DNA of 64,000 bases from a phage. Each line of letters opens with the position of its first letter. Positions within the stretch are counted from its first letter, which is position 1. The stretch lies in sequence record PZ445427.1. The stretch is one strand, 5' to 3'. Shown here in pieces: positions 40,035 through 62,309 of this stretch. The notes below the pieces were generated by a model. It was not told where the DNA came from and searched no databases. It saw only the letters and a program-made list of their open reading frames with translations. The position numbers and the translations under genes were made by a program.

Positions 40035-40039
40035 AATTT

Positions 40040-43089: not shown

Positions 43090-43091
43090 TA

Positions 43092-43167: not shown

Positions 43168-43174
43168 AATTTTA

Positions 43175-43257: not shown

Positions 43258-43360
43258 TATTCTGTGTAGAGTTAAGTAAACCGGTAGCCAACCAGCTATC
43301 ATTGCTGATATCGAATTCAGTCACAGATACCATTTTTCATTAACAACTGAGGAAATAGAT

Positions 43361-43546: not shown

Positions 43547-43554
43547 ATAAATTA

Positions 43555-43632
43555 TGCGATCGGGGCTGGCTTGGTAATGGTACTCCCCTGTCACGGGAGA
43601 GAATGTGGGTTCGAATCCCATCGGTCGCGCCA
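43555..43632 (+). tRNA. tRNA-Asp (anticodon GUC)
   Basis: acceptor GCGATCC/CGGTCGC (6/7); anticodon stem CTCCC/GGGAG loop CTGTCAC; T-arm GTGGG-TTCGAAT-CCCAT; CCA encoded. Confidence 0.65.
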
Positions 43633-43638
43633 AATAAT

Positions 43639-43714
43639 ACATCCATAGCTCAATGGTTAGAGCTACCGCCTCTTAAGCGGAGGGTTCTAGGTTCAAGTCC
43701 TAGTGGGTGTACCA
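43639..43714 (+). tRNA. tRNA-Lys (anticodon CUU)
   Basis: acceptor ACATCCA/TGGGTGT; D-stem GCTC/GAGC; anticodon loop CTCTTAA; T-arm CTAGG-TTCAAGT-CCTAG; CCA encoded. Confidence 0.65.
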
Positions 43715-43794
43715 AACATCAGAGCAGCGTGATGTACTGCAAAGACCCAAAGTCCGGGGTGGACTTCTTGATTCAAAGGAGCAGGCATTAATTA

Positions 43795-43905
43795 TCATTC
43801 TAGCGTGGTGGAGAGGGGACACCAGCTTGCCGAGGGTAGAAGCTCGTTCGATTCGAGTGAAAGAATGGTTCTCGTAAATCCGCACAAGTGATAGTAGGTT
43901 CAAGT
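43795..43905 (+). other. unresolved tRNA-like structured segment
   Basis: contains T-arm-like GCTCG-TTCGATT-CGAGT and GTAGG-TTCAAGT-CCTAC but no acceptor pairing at tRNA spacing. Confidence 0.3.
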
Positions 43906-43927
43906 CCTACCTAGATTGACTCATTAT

Positions 43928-44001
43928 GCGTTCGTAGTTAAAAGGTATAATTTTTGGTTGCCAACCAGAAGTTGAGGGTTCGATTCCCTCCGACCGCACC
44001 A
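43928..44001 (+). tRNA. tRNA-Gly (anticodon GCC)
   Basis: acceptor GCGTTCG/CGACCGC (6/7); D-stem GTTA/TAAT; anticodon stem TTTGG/CCAGA loop TTGCCAA; T-arm GAGGG-TTCGATT-CCCTC; CCA encoded. Confidence 0.65.
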
Positions 44002-44249
44002 AATTTAGGTTTCTGCTTCCTAGAGAACTGACTCCTAGATAAACAAGGCGATGAGTTTCCGGCCGGTTCTAGTCGCTGAAAATCCTCCCGACCAGGTAGG
44101 TGTAAGTAAACGAAAGTTTACTTATTAAGTAAGTCCGACACATCGGCGGGTGTGTTCTAGTACTTAAAGAAGGTCTCGCAAACTTTCTCGCTAGCATGAG
44201 TTGATAGCTCGGTGACTTACCTAATAAGTAAATTTATTAAAAAATGTAG

Positions 44250-44278
44250 TTGCTATTTAGCTTAATTCTCTGTATAAT
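44250..44278 (+). promoter_or_regulatory. promoter cassette driving tRNA-Pro/CAU operon
   Basis: TTGCTA-N17-TATAAT. Confidence 0.6.
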
Positions 44279-44310
44279 ATATTTTATAAAGTGAGTTAAC
44301 AAAGAATATT

Positions 44311-44388
44311 CTCCGTGTAGCTCAGTTTGGCCAGAGCGTTTCGTTTGGGGCGATAGGGTCGGGGGTTCAAATCCTCCCACGGAGACCA
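44311..44388 (+). tRNA. tRNA-Pro (anticodon UGG)
   Basis: perfect acceptor CTCCGTG/CACGGAG; D-stem GCTC/GAGC; anticodon loop TTTGGGG; T-arm GGGGG-TTCAAAT-CCTCC; CCA encoded. Confidence 0.7.
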
Positions 44389-44394
44389 AACAAT

Positions 44395-44472
44395 TGCGGG
44401 TTAGATCTCTGGTAGAGATCGCTAGTCTCATAAGCTAGAAAGAGGTAGGTTCGATTCCTACACCCGCTTCCA
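44395..44472 (+). tRNA. tRNA with anticodon CAU (second copy; Met/fMet/Ile2 type)
   Basis: acceptor TGCGGGT/ACCCGCT (1:72 mismatch, as in initiator tRNAs); D-stem GATC/GATC; anticodon stem CTAGT/GCTAG loop CTCATAA; CCA encoded. Confidence 0.65.
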
Positions 44473-44493
44473 ATTTAATAGAAGGATTTCGAA

Positions 44494-44658
44494 ATGAAAT
44501 TATTTCGTTTAAAAGTAAGTGATCTACGTTCTAGCAAAGATCGTAAGAAGTATCCACTAGCCCATTACGGTAAAGATGAAAATGAAGTGATGGCGGAATT
44601 TGGTATTAATCATCCTTACTTGAAAGTTCACTCTATTAAAGAAGTATACATGTATTAA
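44494..44658 (+). CDS. hypothetical small protein (54 aa)
   Basis: ATG after AAGGATTTCGAA; below 60-aa threshold of ORF track. Confidence 0.35.
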   Translation: MKLFRLKVSDLRSSKDRKKYPLAHYGKDENEVMAEFGINHPYLKVHSIKEVYMY

Positions 44659-44660
44659 AT

Positions 44661-44738
44661 TGACCGTTAACTCAACTGGATAAGAGTACCGAGCTTTTAC
44701 CTCGTAGGTTCTGGGTTCGAATCCCAGACGGTCAACCA
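44661..44738 (+). tRNA. tRNA-Lys (anticodon UUU)
   Basis: perfect acceptor TGACCGT/ACGGTCA; D-stem ACTC/GAGT; anticodon loop CTTTTAC; T-arm CTGGG-TTCGAAT-CCCAG; CCA encoded. Confidence 0.65.
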
Positions 44739-44755
44739 ATTTAAAGGAATTTGTT

Positions 44756-45073
44756 ATGAATATTAACAAAGTTCTAGGAACAATATCAGAAATGTCTGGT
44801 AGAGCTGGAAAACGCTTTACTGAATTATGTATTAAAAATCAAAAAGTACCAGAACATCAATGTCATTATTGTCGAGACTGTGAACAATACCATGAAATGT
44901 GTGTGGTTGAAGATTGGGTCTGGGATCAGATAAGAAAAGAACAATCCAAAGATATTGTTCTATGTTTTACTTGTATGGAACGACGTTTAGGACGTAAAAT
45001 TACTCTTAAAGATCTTAAACATGTTCCCTGTAACGCTCCTTACTTCATTGGTTTTAGAATGGAGAGATTTTGA
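44756..45073 (+). CDS. Cys-rich protein (105 aa)
   Basis: CHYCRDC and CFTC clusters (Zn-binding likely). Confidence 0.5.
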   Translation: MNINKVLGTISEMSGRAGKRFTELCIKNQKVPEHQCHYCRDCEQYHEMCVVEDWVWDQIRKEQSKDIVLCFTCMERRLGRKITLKDLKHVPCNAPYFIGFRMERF

Positions 45074-45206
45074 TGATAATCTGGTTTTACTTAATGAAAC
45101 AAAAAGTCAAGCAGTACAACGTATTTTCTGCTGATTTTACTATTGGAATGTTCTTAGCGGGATTATGTGAGTTTCTGTTTGAAGCCTACATCATAGGAAG
45201 TCTTTT

Positions 45207-45280
45207 GCTCGGTTAGTTTAATGGGAGAACCCCGTCTTTACACGGCGGTTGCGATAGTTCGATTCTATCACCGAGTACCA
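45207..45280 (+). tRNA. tRNA-Val (anticodon UAC)
   Basis: acceptor GCTCGGT/ACCGAGT; anticodon stem CCGTC/GGCGG loop TTTACAC; T-arm GATAG-TTCGATT-CTATC; CCA encoded. Confidence 0.65.
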
Positions 45281-45299
45281 ATTAACTCAAAATAAGGAA

Positions 45300-45659
45300 T
45301 TGCAAATGCAATTATCAAGCAAGGTTCAAGGCTATTTCGGGCATGTAACAATGGAGTTCGCTATCTCTAAAGGTTGGGACTTCGAACAAGATCTAGCTGA
45401 ATTCTACAAAGATATTGATCTGAATGTACCGTACATAGGACTCTCTACTGGTCAAGAGATCACAGAAGGCGATGTGTTCAAGGCAAGTCAAGGTGAGGTA
45501 ACACCTAGTTTTGCCGAGTTCTGGTTAGGTATTACTTTGAAAGAAGATGCACCGGATGGTGGTGTGGTTATGCAGAGTATGCACTCTGGAAGCTCTGACT
45601 ACCTTTTCGTTAGTGACGTTAAGGAAATACAAGAAATCTGCAAAAATGTACTTGCTTGA
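45300..45659 (+). CDS. hypothetical protein (119 aa)
   Basis: ORF. Confidence 0.5.
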   Translation: MQMQLSSKVQGYFGHVTMEFAISKGWDFEQDLAEFYKDIDLNVPYIGLSTGQEITEGDVFKASQGEVTPSFAEFWLGITLKEDAPDGGVVMQSMHSGSSDYLFVSDVKEIQEICKNVLA

Positions 45660-45680
45660 TGCTTAATTTCTTGTTATAAT
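45652..45680 (+). promoter_or_regulatory. promoter cassette followed by about 245-nt leader
   Basis: TTGCTT-N17-TATAAT; next ATG only at 45924. Confidence 0.55.
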
Positions 45681-45923
45681 ATTTATATAAATTGATGGGG
45701 AGAAATCCTCATCAAAGTTCACTAAGGTATTAGCTCGACCTAGGACTGGCTGCCAAAAAGCACGATCCCTACGACTTGGGAGAAGTTCTAGATTAGTCCA
45801 CTAGATTCAGTGGCAACTGAATAGTGTATCGGGTTTGTGAAGAGCGGTTATCCTCTACTGGCTAATGTCTGAGGGTAATACGCACACCGAGCTAATAGCC
45901 TTAGTAAACTAGAAGGAATATCT

Positions 45924-46187
45924 ATGTTTGATCTTAAAGATATGGCTAAGAAACTAATGTCGCAACGTTATCAACAAAGAACCCTCCATAAACGAGTTTC
46001 CGATATGAAGAAACGTTGCAATAATGCTAAGTATTATAATAGTCTTAATAAACTATCTGATGTAGATCTTGCTAAAACTGAAGCAATATATAATCACTTA
46101 GTAGTAGAATCTGATATAGTGAATAAAGATATTGCTAGGCTAGAAGCTCAGATTGTAGCAACTGTTCTCGATATGTATAGAGAATAA
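45924..46187 (+). CDS. hypothetical protein (87 aa)
   Basis: ORF with SD AGAAGGAATATC. Confidence 0.5.
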   Translation: MFDLKDMAKKLMSQRYQQRTLHKRVSDMKKRCNNAKYYNSLNKLSDVDLAKTEAIYNHLVVESDIVNKDIARLEAQIVATVLDMYRE

Positions 46188-46196
46188 ATAAATTTT

Positions 46197-46275
46197 GGGG
46201 AATGGGTCTGCATGGAGTGGACACCTCGCTTGCACCGAGGACATCAGAACGGTTCGATTCCGTTATTCTCCACCA
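46197..46275 (+). tRNA. tRNA-Ala (anticodon UGC), copy 1
   Basis: acceptor GGGGAAT/ATTCTCC with G3-U70; anticodon stem CCTCG/CGAGG loop CTTGCAC; T-arm AACGG-TTCGATT-CCGTT; CCA encoded. Confidence 0.55.
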
Positions 46276-46281
46276 AAATTC

Positions 46282-46357
46282 GGGGTCATAGGTTATTTGG
46301 TTAAACTTACTGCCTTGCAAGCAGTGGAACTCAGTTCAATTCTGAGTGACTCCACCA
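46282..46357 (+). tRNA. tRNA-Ala (anticodon UGC), copy 2
   Basis: acceptor GGGGTCA/TGACTCC with G3-U70; anticodon stem ACTGC/GCAGT loop CTTGCAA; T-arm CTCAG-TTCAATT-CTGAG; CCA encoded. Confidence 0.7.
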
Positions 46358-46376
46358 AACAAATTAAGGAAATAAT

Positions 46377-46595
46377 ATGGTATTCTTAGCAGCCTCTGTA
46401 GTTCTTGCAGCTTTAGCACTAGCTATCTATTTTAGAACTATTAAAGATTTAGCTAAAGAAAAGAAAACTTTCTTTACTGATTATTCTTGGGGCGCTCCAT
46501 ATACCGTCCGCTTTATCAGCTTAGAAGCTATGCTGATAATGGTATTCAGTGGTATAGGTTCCGTTGTTACAGGGTTACTATTTATTTCTAACTAA
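46377..46595 (+). CDS. small membrane protein (72 aa)
   Basis: two hydrophobic helices. Confidence 0.5.
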   Translation: MVFLAASVVLAALALAIYFRTIKDLAKEKKTFFTDYSWGAPYTVRFISLEAMLIMVFSGIGSVVTGLLFISN

Positions 46596-46602
46596 ATAAA
46601 AT

Positions 46603-46683
46603 GGGGATGTGGCGAAATTGGCAGACGCGCTAGATTTAGGCTCTAGTCTTCGGGTGTGGGTTCGAGTCCCTCCATCCCTACCA
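46603..46683 (+). tRNA. tRNA-Leu (anticodon UAG), class II
   Basis: acceptor GGGGATG/CATCCCT; Leu-type D-arm GGCGAAATTGGCAGACGCGC; anticodon stem CTAGA/TCTAG loop TTTAGGC; CCA encoded. Confidence 0.65.
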
Positions 46684-46857
46684 AACATTGGATTAACTCA
46701 TGATGAAAACTCCTATAACTGATATCTGGTTAGCTGTTAATACATTAACTAAAGAGTATGTGTTTATAGAGTATGGTCAGAGGTATGACCAAAAGATGTA
46801 TAATCTCATACTTCCAGTATCCGCTAATGAAGTTTATGATTTAATCCTGAGATCTAC

Positions 46858-46948
46858 GGAAGAGCAAATCGATTAGGTGACGAAAACCGCTTGGAAAGTG
46901 GCTGACTGGTAAAACGGCTTGAGAGTTCGAATCTCTCTTCTTCCGCCA
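46858..46948 (+). tRNA. tRNA-Ser (anticodon GGA), class II
   Basis: acceptor GGAAGAG/TTCTTCC; anticodon loop TTGGAAA; long variable arm; T-arm GAGAG-TTCGAAT-CTCTC; CCA encoded. Confidence 0.55.
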
Positions 46949-46970
46949 AACAACTTACTAGGAAACTAAT

Positions 46971-47327
46971 ATGTCAGAAGTGACAATCTATAATGAAATG
47001 CTTGGCAAAATTTTTACTAGTGTATGCCAAGACCAAGATACTCTTATCTTCATTTGTACTGATGGTAAGAACTATAAGTTTTATCATGAGCAGGACTGCT
47101 GTGAAGATGTTCATATAGATGATATTATTGGTGATTTACATGACCTTTTAGGTTATCCAATCATAGAAGCAGAGGAAGTAATCACACACGCTACAGAAGA
47201 TTGGGATTCAGTAACCCATACATGGTATAAGTTTGCCACAGCTAAAGGCTGTGTAACCGTTAAATGGCATGGTTCTAGTAATGGTTATTACTCTGAATCT
47301 GTAAACTTTGTAATATACGAACAATAG
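46971..47327 (+). CDS. hypothetical protein (118 aa)
   Basis: ORF; stop overlaps start of next tRNA by 2 nt. Confidence 0.5.
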   Translation: MSEVTIYNEMLGKIFTSVCQDQDTLIFICTDGKNYKFYHEQDCCEDVHIDDIIGDLHDLLGYPIIEAEEVITHATEDWDSVTHTWYKFATAKGCVTVKWHGSSNGYYSESVNFVIYEQ

Positions 47328-47415
47328 AAGATAGGACGTAGTGGTACGTAACCGGTCTTGAAAACCGGCCCGCTGTAGTGATATGGTGATGGTTCGACTC
47401 CATTATCTTCTGCCA
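47326..47415 (+). tRNA. tRNA-Ser (anticodon UGA), class II
   Basis: perfect acceptor AGAAGAT/ATCTTCT; anticodon stem CCGGT/ACCGG loop CTTGAAA; long variable arm; T-arm GATGG-TTCGACT-CCATT; CCA encoded. Confidence 0.7.
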
Positions 47416-47560
47416 AATCTTGAAGTATGCCGGAATCGGTAGACGGGGCTTCCTAAAGGGCGTAAGGGGAACATCCACTCCTCATAAGATACCCGAAAAC
47501 GAGGCTGAGATAAATGGTCTATCTCGTGAAGGTTCAAGTCCTTCTGCTTCTTGATATTCA
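47416..47560 (+). other. unresolved tRNA-like structured segment
   Basis: Leu-type D-arm-like CCGGAATCGGTAGACGGGG and T-arm GAAGG-TTCAAGT-CCTTC, but no acceptor or anticodon arm at tRNA spacing. Confidence 0.3.
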
Positions 47561-47773
47561 ATGGCTCAAAGAGTAACGGTGCACCTTTCTAGAGAATTTC
47601 CTGGGCGAGAATCCAGGTGTAATCAACTAGTTGTTAGTGTGATGAGTTTCGGAGAGCCGCCACAATTGAAAATTCGTACTCGTCTTGAGCTTCGTGCAAT
47701 AGAAGATAACTTGATTAGTATTCTAGAAAATGCTATTTGAGGATGGTTTCGCTAACCCTGCGAGTTTTCAATT

Positions 47774-47850
47774 GTGGCTATATCATAATTGGTTAATGAT
47801 CCTGATTGTGAATCAGGCCTATGTGGATTCGAGTTCCACTAGCCACCCCA
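47774..47850 (+). tRNA. tRNA-His (anticodon GUG)
   Basis: perfect acceptor GTGGCTA/TAGCCAC; D-stem TCAT/ATGA; anticodon stem CCTGA/TCAGG loop TTGTGAA; CCA encoded. Confidence 0.75.
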
Positions 47851-47856
47851 AATATT

Positions 47857-47931
47857 GCGTCCTTATTTCAACGGAAAGAATGTAAAGCTACGAACTTTAC
47901 GATCGGGGTTCGATTCCCTGAGGATGCACCA
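47857..47931 (+). tRNA. tRNA-Arg (anticodon ACG)
   Basis: acceptor GCGTCCT/AGGATGC; anticodon stem GTAAAG/CTTTAC loop CTACGAA; T-arm CGGGG-TTCGATT-CCCTG; CCA encoded. Confidence 0.65.
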
Positions 47932-47954
47932 ATTAACTTAAACAGGAAAATAAT

Positions 47955-48156
47955 AATGGCTGATTTCTGTAAAGAATGCTCTATCGATATGTGGGGCAAA
48001 GATACACAAGATCTTTCTGGTCTTATCACTGAAGCCGAGGTTAAAGAGGGCTACGGTGCTGTAGTAATCTGCGAAGGTTGTGGTATTATCCGTGTTGATC
48101 ATGAAGGCAAACGCCTTGAAGAACCTGAGCCAATCGCAACGGTTCCTGTAGAGTAA
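47955..48156 (+). CDS. small Cys-rich protein (67 aa)
   Basis: start placed after tRNAs (ORF 47821 otherwise overlaps two tRNAs); CxxC...CxxC. Confidence 0.45.
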
Positions 48157-48164
48157 AGAATTAT

Positions 48165-48240
48165 TGGGATGTAGATCAATTGGCAGATCGTCGGCCTCTG
48201 ACTCCGAAGGTTCCACGTTCGATCCGTGGCATCCCAGCCA
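48165..48240 (+). tRNA. tRNA-Gln (anticodon CUG)
   Basis: perfect acceptor TGGGATG/CATCCCA with U1-A72 and G73 (Gln-like); D-stem GATC/GATC; anticodon loop CTCTGAC; CCA encoded. Confidence 0.7.
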
Positions 48241-48246
48241 AACAAT

Positions 48247-48322
48247 TGGAGAGTAGTGTAACGGTTAGCACAACGGCCTTTGACTCCGTTAATGGTAGGT
48301 TCGATTCCTCCTTCTCCAGCCA
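48247..48322 (+). tRNA. tRNA-Gln (anticodon UUG)
   Basis: acceptor TGGAGAG/TTCTCCA, G73; anticodon loop CTTTGAC; T-loop TTCGATT; CCA encoded. Confidence 0.65.
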
Positions 48323-48328
48323 ATTTAT

Positions 48329-48403
48329 GCGTGATTAGTTCAGTGGCTAGAATAACTGGCTTCCAACCAGTAGACACGAGTTCGACTCTCGTATCCCGCA
48401 CCA
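48329..48403 (+). tRNA. tRNA-Gly (anticodon UCC)
   Basis: acceptor GCGTGAT/ATCCCGC (6/7); D-stem GTTC/GAAT; anticodon stem ACTGG/CCAGT loop CTTCCAA; CCA encoded. Confidence 0.65.
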
Positions 48404-48419
48404 AATATAAGGAAACGTT

Positions 48420-48662
48420 ATGGACGTTTTTGAGTTTCGTAATAAAAGCCCCAATAGGCGCGTTTTGATTATTGGTGAAACATATCGAGCTTATGAGCAA
48501 GAAGATGGTTCGGTTTTACTAAACGATGAAAAGCAAGGTTATAGCTTTTATCCAGAAGAAACGTATGAAGAATTTCGTACCAAGTTTCTCTTACCAGACT
48601 GGCTAGCAGTAGCCGAGCAACGAGAATCCGAAGATGGCAGAAAACCTAAAATTAAAGGTTGA
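48420..48662 (+). CDS. hypothetical protein (80 aa)
   Basis: ORF with SD AAGGAAACG. Confidence 0.5.
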   Translation: MDVFEFRNKSPNRRVLIIGETYRAYEQEDGSVLLNDEKQGYSFYPEETYEEFRTKFLLPDWLAVAEQRESEDGRKPKIKG

Positions 48663-48785
48663 CAAACAAAAGAAATACGTTGAGGTTGAATTAGGCGAAG
48701 AACGCTTAAAGCTATCCTTCGAGTTTCTTCAGCAGTTGGCGATGACAGTAATGTCTGATAAGTCTCCTGTATTTGAGAAAGAAAT

Positions 48786-48808
48786 CCCGTTGAAATGACG
48801 GGTTTATT
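48786..48808 (+). terminator. hairpin CCCGT-TGAAATGA-ACGGG followed by TTTATT
   Basis: directly upstream of tRNA-Thr; may be terminator or processing signal. Confidence 0.35.
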
Positions 48809-48883
48809 GCTCCTAAAGCATTGCTGGCGATGCAGTTGCCTTGTAAGCATCTGAACCGGGTTCGATTCCTGGTGGGAGCACCA
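48809..48883 (+). tRNA. tRNA-Thr (anticodon UGU)
   Basis: acceptor GCTCCTA/TGGGAGC; D-stem GCAT/ATGC; anticodon loop CTTGTAA; T-arm CCGGG-TTCGATT-CCTGG; CCA encoded. Confidence 0.65.
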
Positions 48884-48898
48884 AATTTAAAAATTCAT

Positions 48899-48927
48899 TT
48901 GCCTTCTCTCTTATTTCTTGTTATAAT
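48899..48927 (+). promoter_or_regulatory. promoter cassette (TTGCCT-N17-TATAAT)
   Basis: followed by AATTAATGAGAGGGAAACC leader and ATG 48958. Confidence 0.55.
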
Positions 48928-48957
48928 ATTTATATAAATTAATGAGAGGGAAACCAA

Positions 48958-49251
48958 ATGAAACGTTATCTTTCTGTCGTATTCCAAACGGGTGGTCAAC
49001 GCTACACTTACGAATTTCCTGAGTCTTGGAAAATCAAAGAGGGTGATCAAGTTGTTGTGTTAACACCTCGTGAAGGCTTCAAAGTAGTAACGGTTAAACA
49101 AGTATTTCCAAAAGATCACGAACCATCTAAGTCTCTTAACTATAAGATGATTCATGGTCTGGTACGAAAAGTACCTAGAACAGAAGTCGAAGTAGATAAA
49201 ACTGGAGAAGCTAAATACCAGTATACCTCTTACTTAGACGAAATGATGTAA
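48958..49251 (+). CDS. hypothetical protein (97 aa)
   Basis: ORF after promoter. Confidence 0.5.
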   Translation: MKRYLSVVFQTGGQRYTYEFPESWKIKEGDQVVVLTPREGFKVVTVKQVFPKDHEPSKSLNYKMIHGLVRKVPRTEVEVDKTGEAKYQYTSYLDEMM

Positions 49252-49252
49252 T

Positions 49253-49328
49253 GCTCCGATAGTTCAAACGGTTAGAACAGGCGACCGATAATCGTCAAAT
49301 CTTGGTTCGATCCCAAGTCGGAGTACCA
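49253..49328 (+). tRNA. tRNA-Ile (anticodon GAU)
   Basis: acceptor GCTCCGA/TCGGAGT; D-stem GTTC/GAAC; anticodon stem GGCGA/TCGTC loop CCGATAA; T-arm CTTGG-TTCGATC-CCAAG; CCA encoded. Confidence 0.7.
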
Positions 49329-49334
49329 AATTAT

Positions 49335-49407
49335 AGTTAGTTGGCAGAGTGGTTATGCACCTCCTTCATACGGAGTGACTACAGTGGTTCAAATCCACTA
49401 CTAACTA
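49335..49407 (+). tRNA. tRNA with anticodon CAU (third copy); CCA not encoded
   Basis: perfect acceptor AGTTAGT/ACTAACT; anticodon loop TTCATAC; T-arm AGTGG-TTCAAAT-CCACT; 3' end followed by CTA. Confidence 0.55.
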
Positions 49408-49779
49408 CTAAACAGAGGATCAGGTCATTGTACCAGATCCTGCTGAGAAGAGAGTCCACATTCTATAAATGGCCGGGCGTGACAGCAGGAAGTAGACTGC
49501 AACTCCATGCTATCCAGGAGTATAAATGTAGAAGCTAGGACTTTAGATAGCCATTGTCTTAGCGTGAGCAATCACGTAGTTGCAACAGACCTGGAAGATC
49601 GCAACGTTAAAATCAAAGTTCCAGTGCTTATTTATCTAATCGAGACCATCAATCTCACCGGAATGCTAGCACCCCAACAGTAGCTAGTGATTAGATAATA
49701 AGCAAGCCTGCCTTCCAGTTTTTATCTTGCTTCTGGGTTAACAAAAAGCTGAGCCAAATTCTAACATCAGGGAGATCTA

Positions 49780-53891: not shown

Positions 53892-54590
53892 ATGAGAATC
53901 ATTTCAAAGTTCAATGATGTATACGATTTGCAGAATAGTTTATTTGATCCAGATCGTGTCTGGGAGCGTAAAACTGAAGAGCTGCTAGTAAAAGTAACTG
54001 ACGATGTAGAAAAGAATATCGTTCATAATCGTCAGGTGTTTCGTGAGGGTTCCTTATCCTTCCGTGGTGACTTCGAATACTCAGTAAATCCACTGTTTAT
54101 TGCAGGCGAAGTTTACTGGTTACATGAACTGTCCTGCTGGCATCCAGCATTCAGTTTCAAAACGTTCAACATCGATGCTGTGTTCGATAAAATGGAAGAA
54201 ATGGGATTACATGCCCGTTCTTACTTACTAGATAAGAATCGTGGTGATGTTCGTGAAACCATGCGAGATATGTTGGTTGAAGCAAAACCTAAAGCAGAAC
54301 GTATCTTATCTGAACTGCGCGTACCAATTGCATATGTGAAAGGTATTAAGAAGAACGATAACGATGATGTTCGTAACTTCGTAATTCAGACAAACATTCG
54401 TTTCCATCAGTCAGGTATTCCGTGGCAGGAAATTGAAAGTAACTTATACCGTTTACACCAAGTTCTCGAACAGTATATCTTCGGTGTACTAGGAACTGGT
54501 GAGCCTGATATGATTACCGTATCAGATAAAGACAGGTTAGCAGCACATGGATTTGATACAAAAACTTCTTTCAGGAATATGGCAAGGTAA
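53892..54590 (+). CDS. hypothetical protein (232 aa)
   Basis: ORF with SD AAAAGGATAA. Confidence 0.55.
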   Translation: MRIISKFNDVYDLQNSLFDPDRVWERKTEELLVKVTDDVEKNIVHNRQVFREGSLSFRGDFEYSVNPLFIAGEVYWLHELSCWHPAFSFKTFNIDAVFDKMEEMGLHARSYLLDKNRGDVRETMRDMLVEAKPKAERILSELRVPIAYVKGIKKNDNDDVRNFVIQTNIRFHQSGIPWQEIESNLYRLHQVLEQYIFGVLGTGEPDMITVSDKDRLAAHGFDTKTSFRNMAR

Positions 54591-54996
54591 GTGGTATATC
54601 CTGGGAGCTGGTCTTGCGATAGGTATCGGATTCGGTGCTTATCACTTAGTAAATAAGGTTGAAACCCTAGCTGGGGATCTTGCAATTGCGACTAAAAAGA
54701 TCTCCACTCTAGAGACTTCCCTTAATAAGGTGAAAACTGAGAGTGAACTTCGTGAGACTCGAATGAACCAGTATTTCACAATGAATAATATTTCGCAAGC
54801 AGATCTAGACAAAAAGATTAAGCAGTTAGATAAAGCTCTTAGTCGTCAAGATGTTATCGCTGCAAAGCCTGGATTGGTAACATTAATTGCTAAAAAGCAG
54901 AATAAAGAGTTCGAGGAAAGATTAGCATGTTTAACTGGAAACTTGGAGTACTGCTCGCAGCCGCAATCACAATCACAGGCTGTGCAGAAGAAATAA
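54547..54996 (+). CDS. membrane-anchored coiled-coil protein, candidate i-spanin
   Basis: N-terminal TM helix WYILGAGLAIGIGFGAY then long helical periplasmic part; next gene starts inside it. Confidence 0.4.
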   Translation: MDLIQKLLSGIWQGKWYILGAGLAIGIGFGAYHLVNKVETLAGDLAIATKKISTLETSLNKVKTESELRETRMNQYFTMNNISQADLDKKIKQLDKALSRQDVIAAKPGLVTLIAKKQNKEFEERLACLTGNLEYCSQPQSQSQAVQKK

Positions 54997-55280
54997 AACC
55001 AGAGCCATCTCATGAGTTAAAGCAAGCTCATGTTGACTGGCCTAAAGGACTTCAGCCGTGTAGCTTTGATTTCAAATTCGAAAAGAAATTAGCTACAAAT
55101 GGTGAAGATGGCGTAGTAGTTGTTGTACCTTACAAAGATTGGAATGCAAAAGCAAAATGCGAGGAAGCAGTTTACTCTTACATTTCACGACTGACCGGTA
55201 TGGTTTGCTTCTATCGTCAAGATTTACAAGAAAAACGTTGCTTAGTTTACTATCCACCCATTACAAATAGGAAAGATTAA
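54927..55280 (+). CDS. lipoprotein, candidate o-spanin
   Basis: lipobox LAAAITITGC after signal helix; embedded start within previous gene (Rz/Rz1-like architecture). Confidence 0.4.
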   Translation: MFNWKLGVLLAAAITITGCAEEIKPEPSHELKQAHVDWPKGLQPCSFDFKFEKKLATNGEDGVVVVVPYKDWNAKAKCEEAVYSYISRLTGMVCFYRQDLQEKRCLVYYPPITNRKD

Positions 55281-56800: not shown

Positions 56801-57457
56801 GTGGAAAAGTTTCTACAACTATTAACGGTACTGCTCCAAGAAGCGAAAGATCCAGCTTCGCTACTAAAACGTCTGCTAACTATCTTAGTTGCTGTCATTA
56901 TTTTCTTGTTTGTAAGTAACACTAGCGAGGTGATGTCATTTTTAAAGACTTTCTCCACGTCTGCGGTTTTACAGGATGTTCAAACCCAAAGGATAGATAA
57001 CTTTCCTAATGTAGCACGAGAAAAGAGCATGGTTCTTTTCTCTCAGACGGGTGCGGATGCTGTTTTTGTAGTCAAGTATAAACCCGATGCTATAAACGAT
57101 TATTCGAACATTATTGCATGGGAAAGCAATGCGCAATTGGATAGGGCTGACTTGGCCGATAAAGCAGTAAACAAGACGTCTGAACTTTATAGACGTCACC
57201 TGGAAGGCTTTAACTACGCTTCGGATTTAAGTGTAAAAGTAAATAAATATATGGGGTCAAATATACCCGCGTTTAAGAACGTTACTTTTAATTACGTCTA
57301 TACTTGTCCGTATTTCAACCTAAATAATATCTATGCTGGATACATAGGTATTGCCTGGAAGGATAAACCCGTAGATACAGCTGACTCGGAACAATTTAAG
57401 GAGTACTTAACAAAGCTTTGCTCACCGCAGCAAAGATCATTAGGTAGATCTATATGA
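56801..57457 (+). CDS. holin-like membrane protein (218 aa)
   Basis: GTG start after GAGGAGG; single N-terminal TM helix LLTILVAVIIFLFV; immediately upstream of and overlapping endolysin. Confidence 0.55.
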   Translation: MEKFLQLLTVLLQEAKDPASLLKRLLTILVAVIIFLFVSNTSEVMSFLKTFSTSAVLQDVQTQRIDNFPNVAREKSMVLFSQTGADAVFVVKYKPDAINDYSNIIAWESNAQLDRADLADKAVNKTSELYRRHLEGFNYASDLSVKVNKYMGSNIPAFKNVTFNYVYTCPYFNLNNIYAGYIGIAWKDKPVDTADSEQFKEYLTKLCSPQQRSLGRSI

Positions 57458-57867
57458 GTTTTAAATTTGGTAAAAATAGCGAAAAACAATTAGCAACTGT
57501 TAAGCCCGAGCTACAAAAGGTAGCTCGTAGGGCTTTAGAACTATCCCCATATGATTTCACAATCGTACAAGGTATTCGTACAGTAGCACAAAGTGCCCAA
57601 AACATTGCTAATGGTACTTCATTTTTGAAAGACCCTAGCAAAAGTAAGCATGTAACTGGAGACGCTATCGATTTTGCACCATATATTAATGGTAAGATTG
57701 ATTGGAAAGATCTGGAAGCATTTTGGGCTGTTAAGAAGGCTTTTGAACAAGCTGGTAAGGAACTTGGTGTCAAACTTCGTTTTGGTGCCGACTGGAATAG
57801 TTCTGGTGATTATCATGATGAGATCGATCGTGGTACTTACGACGGTGGTCACGTAGAATTAGTCTGA
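57454..57867 (+). CDS. endolysin, M15-family L-alanyl-D-glutamate peptidase
   Basis: 137 aa; Zn-ligand motifs H..GDAIDF and DGGHVE; N-terminus MSFKFGKNSEKQL as recalled for T5 endolysin. Confidence 0.85.
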   Translation: MSFKFGKNSEKQLATVKPELQKVARRALELSPYDFTIVQGIRTVAQSAQNIANGTSFLKDPSKSKHVTGDAIDFAPYINGKIDWKDLEAFWAVKKAFEQAGKELGVKLRFGADWNSSGDYHDEIDRGTYDGGHVELV

Positions 57868-58845: not shown

Positions 58846-59128
58846 ATTAGTATATCTATTAAAGGGATCTACCTGCAATCCGTGCAAAATGTTCGAGCCT
58901 GTATTTGATAAAGTAGTACAGGACTACAGTCTAGAAGTTCATAAAGAGACTGATAACACAGAACTTATGCAGAAATTTGGCGTTCGTCAGGTTCCTGTAG
59001 TAGTTTTAGCAGATCGTCTCCCGAATGGTCGTGTGGAAGCCAACCACATTCTGATTGGTCGTCAGCTTCGTAAAGAAACTATGCACGATGCAATCAAAAA
59101 CTTCCTGGAAGATAATCCAGAAGATTAA
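58838..59128 (+). CDS. thioredoxin-fold protein
   Basis: 96 aa; CxxC active-site-like CNPC near N-terminus. Confidence 0.5.
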   Translation: MSKLVYLLKGSTCNPCKMFEPVFDKVVQDYSLEVHKETDNTELMQKFGVRQVPVVVLADRLPNGRVEANHILIGRQLRKETMHDAIKNFLEDNPED

Positions 59129-59136
59129 TAAATCCA

Positions 59137-59168
59137 ACCCAGATCTTAGCTGATCTGGGTTTTTTATT
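59137..59168 (+). terminator. rho-independent terminator
   Basis: ACCCAGATC-TTAGCT-GATCTGGGT followed by TTTTTATT. Confidence 0.65.
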
Positions 59169-59170
59169 AC

Positions 59171-59199
59171 TTGCTTTCTGCTAAAAATTTTGATATAAT
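59171..59199 (+). promoter_or_regulatory. promoter cassette (TTGCTT-N17-TATAAT)
   Basis: leader AAATTGATGAGAGGAGTATCACA then TTG start 59231. Confidence 0.6.
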
Positions 59200-59230
59200 A
59201 TATGTATAAATTGATGAGAGGAGTATCACA

Positions 59231-59611
59231 TTGAATTACGCATATCTTATAATACATAACAACGTGGTCTGTGGTACTCGTGCTGTAGAGATGGGAATCA
59301 CAGAAGAAAAGTATAAGTCACTGCCTGAAAAGGAGCAAGAATATTATGTTGAGCAAGCTGCTTGGGAATATGCTGAAGTTTATCCCGAAGAACGTGAAGG
59401 CCGTGTTACTATTGTTGTTGCTCTGGGGCTGGTGGGCTGTGATACCGAAGTTGATACAGATCTAGAAACACTTGAAGAATGGGAAGAGCTGGATATTGCA
59501 GAGCAAAATGCTATTATCCGTGAATCTTTCTGGGAAGCAGTAGACTGTCACGTTGTATTTGAGCCAAACGATACAGAAGCTGAAAAACACACTAATTGGA
59601 TGACTCGATAA
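59231..59611 (+). CDS. hypothetical acidic protein (126 aa)
   Basis: TTG start after GAGAGGAG. Confidence 0.45.
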   Translation: MNYAYLIIHNNVVCGTRAVEMGITEEKYKSLPEKEQEYYVEQAAWEYAEVYPEEREGRVTIVVALGLVGCDTEVDTDLETLEEWEELDIAEQNAIIRESFWEAVDCHVVFEPNDTEAEKHTNWMTR

Positions 59612-60474
59612 TGAAAAAAGAATTTAACCTGCATGAAATGTTAGTAGTACCAGATGATGTTAACCTGTTCTTCGTAGGAGATATTCACGGCTGTAATGAT
59701 ATGCTGGAAGATGCTCTTAAACTAGCAGGGTATAAAGAGAAGCGTGATTATGTTGTCTGTGTTGGCGACCTAATTGACCGTGGCCCGCAGAACTTACAGG
59801 TTCTAGCCAAATTCTTATATAACCCACGCTTCCGTAGCGTTCGTGGCAACCATGATCAGTTTATGATTGCTGGTGACTATGCCAACTGGATGTATAATGG
59901 TGGAATGTGGGCAATGAATGATCTGGATACCGATACAATTAAAGGTATCGCAGAAGATATGGCAGTTAAAATGCCAGTATTCATGACTGTACTCCATCGT
60001 GGCAAGAAATACGGTGTTGTTCATGGTGGAATACCATTCCAATATAAAGATGCGGGATTCGATGTACATACACCTAATTGGGACGATATTATTGATCATA
60101 TCGCTGCAAGTGAAAATGATCCTAATGATCATCCTAGTTATTACATTGAGCCATATCTATGGGATCGTGATGTAATTCAGGAAATTGGTTTTCATCTGTC
60201 TAAGCAAGGTGCAGAGCACCCCTATTTCCAGCGTTATACAGGATTTAAAGATGAACTGACTGTGGAAGTGCCAGAAGTTGAAAGTGTAGATTTCGTATTC
60301 CATGGTCACACTGGTGTTCCTTACCCAATTCTGTACAAGAACCGTGTTTATCTCGATACTGGCGGTGTTTTCAACGGGCAGTTGACGGTTGCGCAAGTTA
60401 ATGATGAAGCTGGTAAGATTATGACATTTACCACTGACAAAGATGATAGCTGTGGTGTACAGAGGATTCTATAA
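59596..60474 (+). CDS. Ser/Thr protein phosphatase (PPP-family metallophosphoesterase)
   Basis: motifs GDIHG, GDLIDRG, GNHD characteristic of lambda-PP-like phosphatases. Confidence 0.8.
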   Translation: MDDSIMKKEFNLHEMLVVPDDVNLFFVGDIHGCNDMLEDALKLAGYKEKRDYVVCVGDLIDRGPQNLQVLAKFLYNPRFRSVRGNHDQFMIAGDYANWMYNGGMWAMNDLDTDTIKGIAEDMAVKMPVFMTVLHRGKKYGVVHGGIPFQYKDAGFDVHTPNWDDIIDHIAASENDPNDHPSYYIEPYLWDRDVIQEIGFHLSKQGAEHPYFQRYTGFKDELTVEVPEVESVDFVFHGHTGVPYPILYKNRVYLDTGGVFNGQLTVAQVNDEAGKIMTFTTDKDDSCGVQRIL

Positions 60475-60842
60475 TGGAACGTGAAGAACGTTATGTAGTT
60501 ATAAAGCTGTCTGATATTGAGAAAGCCCTAGAATTAGGGCATATCACTCAGAGTAACTTTACCACTTTGGAACATATCTTGTCCAAACTATGGTATAGTC
60601 GAGCACAACGTGGTAAAGAAGATCTCAAAACCGTCGTGGTAGAGCATGATTGGCCAGAGTACGAAGAAGTCTGGAAAATGCTAGAGAATCGTGTTGGTTT
60701 TGAGCAAGCACGACAGGAAGAACTTGACAAAGGATATCAAGAAGCGAAAGAGCACCATGAGGTTTATGATGAAATATTCAAACTTCGTGGTATTAGTAGT
60801 TATTGTCAGGGTTGGAATAAATATGCGGAGGAAGTTCTGTAA
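60474..60842 (+). CDS. hypothetical protein (122 aa)
   Basis: ORF coupled to neighbours. Confidence 0.5.
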   Translation: MEREERYVVIKLSDIEKALELGHITQSNFTTLEHILSKLWYSRAQRGKEDLKTVVVEHDWPEYEEVWKMLENRVGFEQARQEELDKGYQEAKEHHEVYDEIFKLRGISSYCQGWNKYAEEVL

Positions 60843-61048
60843 TGAAGAGATTACTACTAGTATCAGTACTAATACTAGCTGGATGTGATCCTTATGATAA
60901 TAGTATGAGATTCACCGCAGAAGATACTAGACACTTGTGTGATGTAGCTGGAGGTGAGCTGGATAATTCCAGCATCCAAATTGGACTCACAAAAGGTATA
61001 TTCTACGATAGTTATACTATTACCTCAACTTGTGTAAGGAATAAGTAA
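60842..61048 (+). CDS. small lipoprotein (68 aa)
   Basis: signal + lipobox VLILAGC. Confidence 0.5.
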   Translation: MKRLLLVSVLILAGCDPYDNSMRFTAEDTRHLCDVAGGELDNSSIQIGLTKGIFYDSYTITSTCVRNK

Positions 61049-61638
61049 TGAAAGTTAAATTCTGGTCGGATTTGCACCTAGACCATCCTGGAACTCTTCG
61101 CTTCCGTCCGTGGTTTAAGAACATGAAAGAGCACGATGAATATATCCTAGATACTTTGTCCAAGCACATTGGCAAGCGTACAAAACTTGTATTGCTAGGA
61201 GATATTGCCGTGGGGCGTGAAGGGTTGGCTAAATTGAAGTCGGTTATCCACAATGTGCCTAACCAATTAATCATGGGCAACCACGATGCTGAACGTCAGG
61301 GTCTGCGTATTAAAGATCTTGTAGACGTTTATGATGATATTCAGGCTCTAGGTAAGCAAACAGGTGGTGGCAAGAAGTTTTGGCTGTCACACTGTCCATT
61401 GCACGAAGCAGAACTTCGTGGTAAGCTAAACATTCACGGACATGTGCACACCAATTCTGTGCGTGACCCACGTTATATCAACGTCTCTTTTGAGATGAGC
61501 AAGACTCCTATTCCTCTAGAGGATATTGTGTCTGGCAAGTTCACAAGCTATGATAAAGTGGTTAACTGCACTACTGGTGAAATACTCCAAATCGATGAAG
61601 ATGTGGCGGCGGTATTGAGAGGAGATATCAATGTTTGA
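61048..61638 (+). CDS. calcineurin-like metallophosphoesterase
   Basis: 196 aa; GDIAVG, GNHDAE, GHVH metal-ligand motifs. Confidence 0.6.
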   Translation: MKVKFWSDLHLDHPGTLRFRPWFKNMKEHDEYILDTLSKHIGKRTKLVLLGDIAVGREGLAKLKSVIHNVPNQLIMGNHDAERQGLRIKDLVDVYDDIQALGKQTGGGKKFWLSHCPLHEAELRGKLNIHGHVHTNSVRDPRYINVSFEMSKTPIPLEDIVSGKFTSYDKVVNCTTGEILQIDEDVAAVLRGDINV

Positions 61639-61740
61639 TTTTGATGGCATGGCTCGTGAGATATTTATAGCAATAGGTATAGTAGTTCTTATCTCTTTCT
61701 TTACGGGCCTAGGCTTAGGCCTTTTATTTTAAAACTTCAT

Positions 61741-61769
61741 TTGCTAAAATGCTTAGTTTTCTGTATAAT
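61741..61769 (+). promoter_or_regulatory. promoter cassette (TTGCTA-N17-TATAAT)
   Basis: upstream of 61800 gene. Confidence 0.6.
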
Positions 61770-61799
61770 TACTTTATAAATTGATGAGAAGGAATCAAA

Positions 61800-62231
61800 A
61801 TGCAAAAGATTGATAAAGCACTCTTAATCGCAACAGCAGATAAGTTTGAGCAAGTTAAAGCTACTTTTAAGGCAGTCTTTCAGTCCTATGTTCAAGACAA
61901 ATCGAACCCGATTTCTGAGCGTTTGATGATGTGGGAATGTTTTGCTTGCAATGCTCTGCTAATTTCCGATTATAAGGGAGAAGTATCTGAGGAATTGCAT
62001 GAGATCTTTATTAATGAGGATACTCCACGCTATCAGTTAGTGAACTTCCAAGATCTAGCTGAGCAAGTTATTCCTGATGATCTTTGGGACAAGTATTACG
62101 GTGATCCTGAAGAAGATGGTATGGAACCTGAGAAGTGCATCGAACTGATCTGTAAGGATCACCCTGAAATTGCTGAGAAATTTGAGCTAGTATTTGCTTC
62201 TGAGTTCTCAGGTTTCGTTAACGATTGGTAA
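61800..62231 (+). CDS. hypothetical protein (143 aa)
   Basis: ORF after promoter. Confidence 0.5.
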   Translation: MQKIDKALLIATADKFEQVKATFKAVFQSYVQDKSNPISERLMMWECFACNALLISDYKGEVSEELHEIFINEDTPRYQLVNFQDLAEQVIPDDLWDKYYGDPEEDGMEPEKCIELICKDHPEIAEKFELVFASEFSGFVNDW

Positions 62232-62248
62232 GTAAATAAAAAATTCAG

Positions 62249-62277
62249 TTGCTTTTAGCTTTAAAATTCTGTATAAT
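62249..62277 (+). promoter_or_regulatory. promoter cassette (TTGCTT-N17-TATAAT)
   Basis: leader ATAAATTAATGAGAGAGGAAATTCTA then ATG 62310. Confidence 0.6.
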
Positions 62278-62309
62278 AAGTTCATAAATTAATGAGAGAG
62301 GAAATTCTA

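What the first reader, a model, noticed from the sequence alone, without database searches (positions are those of the whole stretch)
59596..61638. Two metallophosphoesterases close together
Seen in sequence: a PPP-family Ser/Thr phosphatase (59596..60474; GDIHG/GDLIDRG/GNHD) and a second calcineurin-like phosphoesterase (61048..61638) are separated by a lipoprotein gene. Inference: possible roles in dephosphorylating host proteins or degrading nucleotide signals.
Basis: partly seen in the sequence, partly recalled or inferred. Interest (0 to 1): 0.35.

Follow-up and report, generated by a model that had tools for sequence, protein, structure and literature searches.

The report
Two known T5-type phage phosphoesterase genes
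Two real but unrelated metal-dependent phosphoesterase genes sit in one early operon of a T5-like Salmonella/E. coli phage; both are already annotated in hundreds of related phage genomes, so the finding is ordinary, although neither enzyme's substrate is known.

Summary
The window is a T5-like phage (Epseptimavirus), 99% identical here to Salmonella phage Sw2. The first gene (true start ATG 59611, to 60474) is a lambda-phosphatase-type PPP enzyme. All catalytic residues are conserved, and it is 79% identical to T5.035, the ORF to which the classical T5 gene C2 has been mapped. The second gene (61048-61638) is a complete but minimal metallophosphoesterase of the aq_1665 / PHROG 547 family. All seven metal ligands plus the catalytic His79 are invariant. 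It is not a PPP protein phosphatase, so the "Ser/Thr phosphatase" label on it in many records is unsupported. The two are not recent paralogs. Two genes separate them, not one: a 122-aa unknown and a 68-aa lipoprotein. All lie in a five-gene, translationally coupled operon bounded by terminators. In T5 itself the two enzyme genes abut; the stretch 60480-61715 has no DNA similarity to T5. The pairing is conserved in T5-like phages but rare elsewhere, where PHROG 547 genes mostly stand alone. No evidence supports degradation of nucleotide signals. Already known at annotation level; biochemically uncharacterised. Low interest.

The parts
59136..59161 (+). Intrinsic terminator-like hairpin plus T-run after the thioredoxin gene; upstream boundary of the operon
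   Evidence: Scan, 10-bp stem then TTTTATT; annotated as a terminator at the same place in Sw2 and T5
59171..59199 (+). Probable sigma-70 early promoter: TTGCTT, 17-nt spacer, TGaTATAAT (extended -10)
   Evidence: Read by eye from the sequence; missed by the automatic scan; lies in the segment 85% identical to T5, where a promoter is annotated
59231..59611 (+). First operon gene, 126 aa, DUF7167 / PHROG 6798, function unknown
   Evidence: no DNA homology to the positional T5 counterpart T5.036
59611..60474 (+). PP1: lambda-phosphatase-type PPP enzyme, 287 aa, ortholog of T5.035 (the ORF to which T5 gene C2 has been mapped)
   Evidence: Pfam, PHROG and NCBIfam matches; 1G5B E=2.7e-32; 79% identity to T5.035; invariant D24 H26 D53 N80 H138 R186 H233 and near-invariant D56 R57 H81; AF2 pLDDT 92.8 with Foldseek top hit 1G5B E=4e-20
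60474..60842 (+). 122-aa acidic protein, PHROG 7810, function unknown, no transmembrane segment; absent from T5 at this position
60842..61048 (+). 68-aa lipoprotein (signal peptide, lipobox LAG|C, Asp at +2), labelled 'Rz-like spanin' in databases, probably wrongly; absent from T5 at this position
   Evidence: the genuine spanin pair is at 54547-54996 and 54927-55280
61048..61638 (+). MPE2: minimal metallophosphoesterase, 196 aa, aq_1665 / PHROG 547 family, 53% identical to T5.034
61705..61722 (+). Intrinsic terminator-like hairpin; downstream boundary of the operon, followed by a promoter-like site at 61741-61769 for the next gene
   Evidence: a terminator is annotated at the same place in Sw2

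Best explanation
This is the conserved early-gene pair T5.035 / T5.034 of T5-like phages (Demerecviridae), in its Epseptimavirus arrangement. PP1 (59611-60474) is a binuclear-metal phosphoprotein phosphatase of the lambda-phosphatase type, with an extra ~65-residue helical insert. It is made early in infection and most likely removes phosphate from Ser/Thr/Tyr residues of a host or phage protein. A paper states that the C2 mutation of T5 maps to the ORF of a putative ~32-kDa Ser/Thr phosphatase. The orthologous T5 ORF, T5.035, fits that description. C2 mutants lack a 90-kDa protein otherwise found with host RNA polymerase. The likeliest physiological role is therefore an indirect contribution to the remodelling of host RNA polymerase during the early phase. 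MPE2 (61048-61638) is an unrelated, minimal metallophosphoesterase of the aq_1665 / PHROG 547 family. It is predicted to be catalytically competent and is most likely a phosphodiesterase acting on a nucleotide or nucleic-acid substrate, not a protein phosphatase. The two are co-transcribed from one early promoter with three small genes, and all five are translationally coupled. Their proximity reflects lineage-specific synteny rather than an obligate two-enzyme system. Shown here: gene identity, orthology, intact active sites, predicted folds, operon structure and distribution. Inferred: the substrates, and the link to RNA polymerase and transcription.
Against: No biochemical data exist for either protein in what I could search. 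The C2 mapping rests on one sentence in one paper, which gives no ORF number; I could not see the primary mapping data. Lambda-type phosphatases also hydrolyse non-protein substrates such as 2',3'-cyclic nucleotides (from my own knowledge of Shuman-lab work, not checked here), so a 'protein' substrate is not proven. The helical insert has no counterpart in lambda phosphatase and could redirect specificity. The recurrence of the pair, in either gene order, in LAh_9, L028 and L029 leaves some room for functional coupling.
Confidence: 0.6

Rival explanations
1. Counter-defence by signal degradation. One or both enzymes hydrolyse host immune nucleotide messengers (cyclic oligonucleotides, cyclic ADP-ribose isomers, other NAD-derived products) and so disarm systems such as CBASS, Thoeris or Pycsar. 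This is the second half of the first reader's idea.
For: Both are early genes sitting among small accessory genes. The MPE fold includes cyclic-nucleotide and ADP-ribose-type hydrolases among the distant structural neighbours of MPE2, such as Rv0805 and the zebrafish dimetal phosphatase 2NXF. In Aeromonas phage LAh_9 the MPE2 homolog lies directly downstream of genes annotated ribose-phosphate pyrophosphokinase and nicotinate/nicotinamide phosphoribosyltransferase, which resemble the NAD+-reconstitution pair NARP1 described in bioRxiv 10.64898/2026.01.28.702374. PHROG 547 is spread across many virulent phage lineages, as accessory or anti-defence genes often are.
Against: Neither enzyme resembles a known anti-defence nuclease or phosphodiesterase. 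The phage phosphatase in the NARP1 work is a Macro-domain protein, not an MPE. There are no PADLOC hits. PP1 fails the ApaH and YfcE family cut-offs, and MPE2 matches neither model at all. The NARP1-like neighbourhood was seen in one locus out of about 80 and was not tested statistically. If T5 C2 is essential on ordinary laboratory hosts (conditional-lethal amber mutants, from my own knowledge), that fits a core function better than counter-defence.
Confidence: 0.1
2. Nucleic-acid processing. MPE2 is a small Mn-dependent DNA or RNA nuclease or end-processing phosphodiesterase (like Mre11/SbcD or the Pseudomonas nuclease MPE/PdeM). PP1 acts as an RNA 3'-end healing enzyme (2',3'-cyclic phosphodiesterase / 3'-phosphatase, like the phosphatase domain of bacterial Pnkp), for example to repair tRNAs cut by host anticodon nucleases.
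Confidence: 0.15
3. PP1 is an ApaH-like dinucleoside-polyphosphate hydrolase / RNA decapping enzyme (Ap4A and Np4-capped RNA) rather than a protein phosphatase.
For: It has GNHD rather than the GNHE of lambda phosphatase. Its length (287 aa) is close to ApaH (280 aa). The N-terminal half matches ApaH models (PRK00166 E=2.3e-17) and ApaH structures. A putative Ap4A hydrolase, 2QJC, is the second-best fold hit.
Against: The ApaH matches cover only residues ~20-150 and fall far below the family cut-offs (63 against 176 bits; 39 against 222.85). PP1 keeps the full PPP motif GDLIDRG, including the Asp of the His-Asp dyad. Lambda phosphatase matches both halves and is the clear best hit. ApaH chains are not in the Foldseek top 50.
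Confidence: 0.08

Closest known systems
Bacteriophage T5 T5.035 (putative Ser/Thr protein phosphatase; the ORF to which gene C2 has been mapped) and its orthologs in Demerecviridae
   Same: 79% identity over all 287 residues with no gaps, the same position after the thioredoxin gene and its terminator/promoter, and the same early-region context.
   Different: Nothing of substance. In this window the upstream small gene is a non-homologous 126-aa DUF7167 gene instead of T5.036.
Bacteriophage lambda Ser/Thr protein phosphatase (NinI, PDB 1G5B) and the host enzymes PrpA/PrpB
   Same: PPP motifs GDxHG, GDxxDRG and GNH[DE], the downstream His, Arg and GH ligands, and the core fold (TM 0.81 on lambda phosphatase, 30% identity).
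   Different: About 65 extra residues (roughly 150-220), predicted to form four helices and absent from lambda phosphatase and the short bacterial homologs. GNHD instead of GNHE. Scores far below the PrpA/PrpB equivalog cut-offs (95.6 against 326 bits).
Bacteriophage T5 T5.034 'phosphoesterase' / PHROG 547
   Same: Same family (E=1.6e-56) with all catalytic motifs, and the last gene of the same operon.
   Different: Only 53% identity, and 23 residues longer at the C-terminus. It lies in a 1.24-kb segment with no DNA similarity to T5 that also carries two extra genes.
Aquifex aeolicus aq_1665 (PDB 1XM7), a structural-genomics protein of unknown function
   Different: A cellular (bacterial) protein, 26-29% identical; no function is known for it, so it transfers no functional information.
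Mycobacteriophage metallophosphoesterases (A10ZJ24 Gp48, reported to damage host DNA, PMC12287305; Bxb1 gp47)
   Same: Early phage-encoded MPE-superfamily enzymes with five motifs; phosphodiesterase activity was shown for Gp48.
   Different: A different family: Bxb1 gp47 is PHROG 221 and has no detectable pairwise similarity to MPE2 (E=7.8). Function cannot be transferred.

Membership tests
PPP-family phosphoprotein phosphatase, lambda-phosphatase subgroup (for PP1) | Motifs GDxHG, GDxVDRG and GNH[DE] carrying the metal ligands and the His-Asp dyad | tested here: met
   GDIHG (D24, H26), GDLIDRG (D53, D56, R57) and GNHD (N80, H81) are invariant or at least 90% conserved in 28 homologs
PPP-family phosphoprotein phosphatase, lambda-phosphatase subgroup (for PP1) | C-terminal-half ligands and phosphate-binding Arg (lambda phosphatase H139, R162, H186 from my knowledge of that structure) | tested here: met
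   H138, R186 and H233 are invariant; both halves align to 1G5B
PPP-family phosphoprotein phosphatase, lambda-phosphatase subgroup (for PP1) | Fold of lambda phosphatase | tested here: met
   AF2 pLDDT 92.8; Foldseek 1G5B E=4e-20, target TM 0.81
PPP-family phosphoprotein phosphatase, lambda-phosphatase subgroup (for PP1) | Mn-dependent hydrolysis of phospho-Ser/Thr/Tyr in proteins | not testable with these tools
   Needs an enzyme assay
Host PrpA/PrpB equivalogs (NF008516, NF007425) (for PP1) | Score at or above the curated equivalog cut-off | tested here: not met
   95.6 against 326 bits and 75.7 against 332 bits
ApaH, symmetrical Ap4A hydrolase (PRK00166 / TIGR00668) (for PP1) | Full-length match at or above the curated cut-off | tested here: not met
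   63.2 against 176 bits and 39.2 against 222.85 bits; only residues ~24-150 match
Metallophosphoesterase (calcineurin-like) superfamily (for MPE2) | Five motifs: DxH, GD, GNH[DE], H, GHxH | tested here: met
   D8, H10, D52, N78, H79, H115, H132 and H134 are invariant in 33-34 homologs. Single-sequence Pfam scores are marginally under the cut-offs (21.4 against 21.5; 24.9 against 27), but profile and fold are unambiguous
aq_1665 / PHROG 547 minimal MPE family (for MPE2) | Significant full-length profile and fold match | tested here: met
PPP-family Ser/Thr protein phosphatase (for MPE2, as labelled in many phage records) | GDxHG and GDxVDRG signatures | tested here: not met
PdeM, ligase-associated nuclease (TIGR04123) (for MPE2) | Score at or above the curated cut-off, and a ligase/helicase gene neighbourhood | tested here: not met
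   24.4 against 150 bits; no such neighbours
Rz1-type outer-membrane spanin (for the 68-aa lipoprotein, PHROG 6073 label) | Lipoprotein signal with lipobox Cys | tested here: met
   MKRLLLVSVLILAG|C
Rz1-type outer-membrane spanin (for the 68-aa lipoprotein, PHROG 6073 label) | Partner inner-membrane spanin gene (N-terminal TMD plus coiled coil) embedded, overlapping or adjacent, within a lysis cassette | tested here: not met
   The neighbouring 122-aa protein has no hydrophobic N-terminus. The genuine overlapping spanin pair is at 54547-54996 and 54927-55280. Holin and endolysin are 3 kb upstream, separated by terminators
Rz1-type outer-membrane spanin (for the 68-aa lipoprotein, PHROG 6073 label) | Sorting to the outer membrane (no Asp at position +2 in enterobacteria; rule from established Lol-pathway knowledge) | tested here: not met
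   The mature protein starts Cys-Asp. This is a rule-based inference, not an experiment

The most novel reading that the evidence does not exclude
PHROG 547, of which MPE2 is a member, is present in at least 1182 sequenced phage genomes across unrelated virulent lineages and has no known substrate. It could be a broadly distributed phage enzyme that removes a host-made phosphodiester or pyrophosphate signal or toxic nucleotide, for example an NAD-derived product, as hinted by its position next to NARP1-like genes in Aeromonas phage LAh_9. In T5-like phages it might then work alongside the C2 phosphatase as an early host-takeover or counter-defence module.
Probability: 0.1. Interest if true: 0.55.

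Novelty: already known. Interest (0 to 1): 0.15.

Why it matters
As a genome feature it matters little: both genes are conserved and already annotated in T5-like phages. Three modest points are worth keeping. (1) The small enzyme is widely mislabelled 'serine/threonine phosphatase', although it lacks the PPP signatures and belongs to the uncharacterised aq_1665 family. (2) The PP1 ortholog in T5 appears to be the old genetic locus C2, tied to modification of host RNA polymerase, so this enzyme is a concrete and testable handle on the still unresolved early-to-late transcription switch of T5-like phages. (3) PHROG 547 is a very widespread phage enzyme family with no known substrate, which makes it a reasonable target for a substrate screen.

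Tried and rejected
1. Recent duplication: rejected. The two proteins align over only 45 residues around motifs II-III (E=0.002).

2. Obligate two-enzyme module: largely rejected. I fetched 80 IMG/VR loci encoding PHROG 547 relatives and scanned their ORFs with HMMs of both families. All 9 T5-type loci have the pair, but only 2 of 71 others do (L028, L029), plus Aeromonas phage LAh_9. Two further hits score only 34-36 bits. Flanks were up to 10 kb each side but shorter on many contigs.

3. Kinship with the experimentally studied mycobacteriophage MPEs (Gp48 of A10ZJ24, Bxb1 gp47): rejected, different PHROG and no pairwise similarity.

4. The 'phage phosphatases' that counter RES-type NAD+ depletion: irrelevant here, since that enzyme is a Macro-domain protein.

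5. Defence-system components: no meaningful PADLOC hits.

6. ApaH, PdeM, YfcE, PrpA/B and Pnkp membership: every match (PP1 for all but PdeM, MPE2 for PdeM only) is far below its curated cut-off.

7. Literature searches for T5.034 / T5.035 function: I found only the use of T5.035 (orf5c) as a phylogenetic marker (PMC5816814) and the C2 mapping statement. Searches on phage T5 with late transcription, kinase, counter-defence and CRISPRi-ART gave nothing relevant.

8. The afdb50 fold library was unavailable, so cellular homologs with curated names were not surveyed.

Full report
**What the window is.** The region 59000-62300 is 99.0% identical over its full length to Salmonella phage Sw2 (Demerecviridae, Epseptimavirus). 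It matches 447 phage records, of which 179 cover at least 80% of the query. The surroundings are typical of a T5-like phage:
- a T-type holin (56801-57457) and an L-alanyl-D-glutamate peptidase-type endolysin (57454-57867) just upstream;
- a dNMP kinase, a Clp-like protease and an overlapping spanin pair further upstream;
- 29 tRNA genes at 34483-49408.

In Sw2 the region lies at 16-19 kb of a 114-kb genome, in the early region.

**Checking the observation.** Both ORFs exist.

The first contains GDIHG, GDLIDRG and GNHD as stated. It matches Pfam Metallophos (E=6.7e-17, 63 bits against a cut-off of 21.5), PHROG 246 'NinI-like serine-threonine phosphatase' (E=3.7e-92) and the lambda phosphatase structure 1G5B (E=2.7e-32, two aligned stretches). 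The coordinate 59596 is only the first TTG of the open frame. The real start is ATG 59611, which overlaps the TAA of the upstream gene by one base. Sw2 and T5 are annotated this way, giving 287 aa, and the homologs all begin at that Met.

The second ORF (61048-61638, 196 aa) matches PHROG 547 'phosphoesterase' (E=1.6e-56). As a single sequence it falls just below the Pfam cut-offs (21.4 against 21.5 bits; 24.9 against 27).

It does not. In alignments of 33-34 homologs down to 24% identity, D8, H10, D52, N78, H79, H115, H132 and H134 are invariant. These are the DxH, GD, GNH, H and GHxH motifs.

One detail is wrong. Two genes lie between the enzymes, not one: a 122-aa acidic protein (60474-60842, PHROG 7810, function unknown) and the 68-aa lipoprotein (60842-61048).

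**Anatomy of the locus.** A hairpin terminator follows the thioredoxin gene at 59136-59161. By eye, a strong sigma-70 promoter follows at 59171-59199: TTGCTT, 17 nt, TGaTATAAT. It lies in a segment 85% identical to T5, where a promoter is annotated.

Five genes then run from 59231 to 61638, with one-base stop/start overlaps at 59611, 60474, 60842 and 61048. A second terminator sits at 61705-61722, followed by the next promoter-like site at 61741-61769. So the two enzymes are co-transcribed and translationally coupled with three small genes of unknown function.

**Comparison with T5.** T5 carries T5.035 ('NinI-like serine-threonine phosphatase', 287 aa) and T5.034 ('phosphoesterase', 173 aa) directly abutting. 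PP1 is 79% identical to T5.035 without gaps. MPE2 is only 53% identical to T5.034.

DNA similarity between the window and T5 runs through the thioredoxin-promoter segment and through PP1 (77%). It vanishes from 60480 to 61715 and resumes at 61716 (82%). The 122-aa gene, the lipoprotein gene and a divergent MPE2 allele therefore form a 1.24-kb mosaic segment in place of T5's 0.52 kb.

Consistent with two allele classes, tblastn identities of MPE2 against phage genomes are bimodal. About 250 records are at 90% or more, only one lies between 60 and 80%, and T5-type phages sit near 53%.

**What PP1 is.** Across 28 homologs, D24, H26, D53, N80, H138, R186 and H233 are invariant. D56, R57 and H81 are at least 90% conserved. 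This is the full PPP set, including the Asp that partners the catalytic His and the two phosphate-binding arginines.

The AlphaFold model is confident (pLDDT 92.8). Its best structural match is lambda phosphatase (E=4e-20, target TM 0.81, 30% identity). That is far ahead of a putative Ap4A hydrolase, the Pnkp phosphatase domain and eukaryotic PP1, PP2A and PP5.

Relative to lambda phosphatase, the T5-group proteins have about 65 extra residues (roughly 150-220), predicted to form four helices. PP1 does not reach the equivalog cut-offs for host PrpA/PrpB or for ApaH.

The only functional information I found is in Klimuk et al. 2020 (PMC7472727). It states that the T5 C2 mutation maps to an ORF for a putative ~32-kDa Ser/Thr phosphatase. 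It also states that the 90-kDa early protein seen with host RNA polymerase is absent in C2-mutant infections, so any effect of C2 on the polymerase is likely indirect. The paper gives no ORF number. T5.035 is the only ORF annotated as a Ser/Thr phosphatase in the 16-kb T5 region I examined. It is otherwise used only as a phylogenetic marker, 'orf5c' (PMC5816814).

Motif II is GDIAVGREG, without the PPP 'DRG', and motif I is SDLHLDH. MPE2 is therefore a generic minimal metallophosphoesterase, not a PPP protein phosphatase. The label 'serine/threonine protein phosphatase' in many records is not supported. The weak PdeM hit (24 bits against a cut-off of 150) does not make it a member of that family.

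The family is widespread. There are 1182 phage records with a tblastn match, including T5-like phages, Ackermannviridae, T4-like Acinetobacter phages, Kayvirus, Kuravirus, jumbo phages, crAss-like phages and Arthrobacter phages. Many metagenomic contigs also carry it. Neighbouring genes are mostly small unknowns or replication and nucleotide-metabolism genes.

**Are the two enzymes a system?** They are not recent paralogs. I fetched 80 viral loci encoding MPE2 relatives and scanned all their ORFs with HMMs of both families. All nine T5-type loci have the pair. Only L028 and L029 among 71 others have a strong PP1 homolog within the flanks held, which reach 10 kb each side at most and are shorter on many contigs.

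Aeromonas phage LAh_9 also has both, in the reverse order and separated by three small genes. Its PP1 homolog is 33% identical (E=4e-40). L028 and L029 share a few other genes with the window, so they may be distant relatives of T5-like phages.

The pairing is thus conserved synteny within one broad lineage, with some rearrangement. Most members of the MPE2 family work without a PP1 partner.

**Mechanism.** My best reading has two parts. PP1 is an early phosphoprotein phosphatase whose T5 ortholog appears to be C2, with an indirect role in remodelling host RNA polymerase. MPE2 is an independent phosphodiesterase of unknown substrate.

Gene identity, orthology, active-site integrity, fold, operon structure and distribution are shown here. 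The substrates and the transcription link are inferred.

Three rivals cannot be excluded, but none has positive evidence beyond generic fold similarity and one suggestive neighbourhood in LAh_9:
- degradation of immune nucleotide signals;
- nucleic-acid end processing or nuclease activity;
- ApaH-like Ap4A hydrolysis or RNA decapping by PP1.

PADLOC gives no meaningful hits. The recently described 'phage phosphatases' that counter RES-type NAD+ depletion are Macro-domain proteins. The mycobacteriophage MPE shown to damage host DNA belongs to a different family.

**The lipoprotein.** It has a clean lipobox (LAG|C) and two further cysteines. It is labelled 'Rz-like spanin' through PHROG 6073, but this is doubtful for three reasons:
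- its neighbour has no transmembrane segment;
- the phage has a canonical overlapping spanin pair elsewhere (54547-54996 with an N-terminal TMD; 54927-55280 with lipobox ITG|C followed by Ala);
- its +2 residue is Asp, the enterobacterial inner-membrane retention signal (established rule, not tested here).

Its role is unknown. Superinfection exclusion is a guess.

**Verdict.** The feature is an ordinary, already annotated part of T5-like phage genomes. The remaining interest lies only in the unknown substrates of both enzymes and in correcting two propagated annotations.

Noticed in passing
window 60842-61048 (compare 54547-54996 and 54927-55280): The 68-aa lipoprotein between the two enzymes is annotated 'Rz-like spanin' in RefSeq and PHROGs. 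It has Asp at +2 (an inner-membrane retention signal) and no inner-membrane-spanin partner. A canonical overlapping spanin pair exists 6 kb upstream, so the label is probably a propagated misannotation.
   Followed up: partly
window 60480-61715: There is no DNA similarity to phage T5 across this 1.24-kb stretch, although the flanks are 77-82% identical. It holds two genes absent from T5 at this position plus a divergent (53% aa) allele of the small phosphoesterase, which looks like a mosaic cassette replacement.
   Followed up: partly
window 59231-59611; L002 4304-4549 (T5.036): The first gene of the operon (126 aa, DUF7167) is not homologous at DNA level to its positional counterpart in T5. 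That counterpart, the 81-aa T5.036, is labelled 'major head protein' in RefSeq, an implausible name for an 81-aa early-region product.
   Followed up: no
L009 (Aeromonas phage LAh_9, MK838115) 1-5145: The MPE2 homolog lies directly after genes annotated ribose-phosphate pyrophosphokinase and nicotinate/nicotinamide phosphoribosyltransferase, which resemble the NAD+-reconstitution pair NARP1. It is followed by a small PHROG 335 'phosphatase' and a lambda-phosphatase-like gene. This could hint at an NAD/ADP-ribose-related substrate; it was seen once only.
   Followed up: partly
L006 6001-8114 (metagenomic contig, distant T5-like): Here the MPE2 homolog is two genes away from a third kind of metallophosphoesterase (272 aa, PHROG 1649) that is unrelated to PP1. 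Clustering of different MPE genes recurs with different partners.
   Followed up: partly
window 59611-60474, residues ~150-220 of PP1: T5-group lambda-type phosphatases carry a ~65-residue insert, predicted as four helices, that is absent from lambda phosphatase and the short bacterial homologs and grows stepwise across the family alignment. Its role is unknown; substrate selection or a partner-binding surface are possibilities.
   Followed up: partly
window 34483-49408: A cluster of 29 tRNA genes on the + strand, typical of T5-like phages.
   Followed up: no
many phage records: The small PHROG 547 enzyme is variously named 'serine/threonine protein phosphatase', 'phosphoesterase', 'metallophosphatase' or 'hypothetical protein'. 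The first name is not supported by its motifs or fold.
   Followed up: yes
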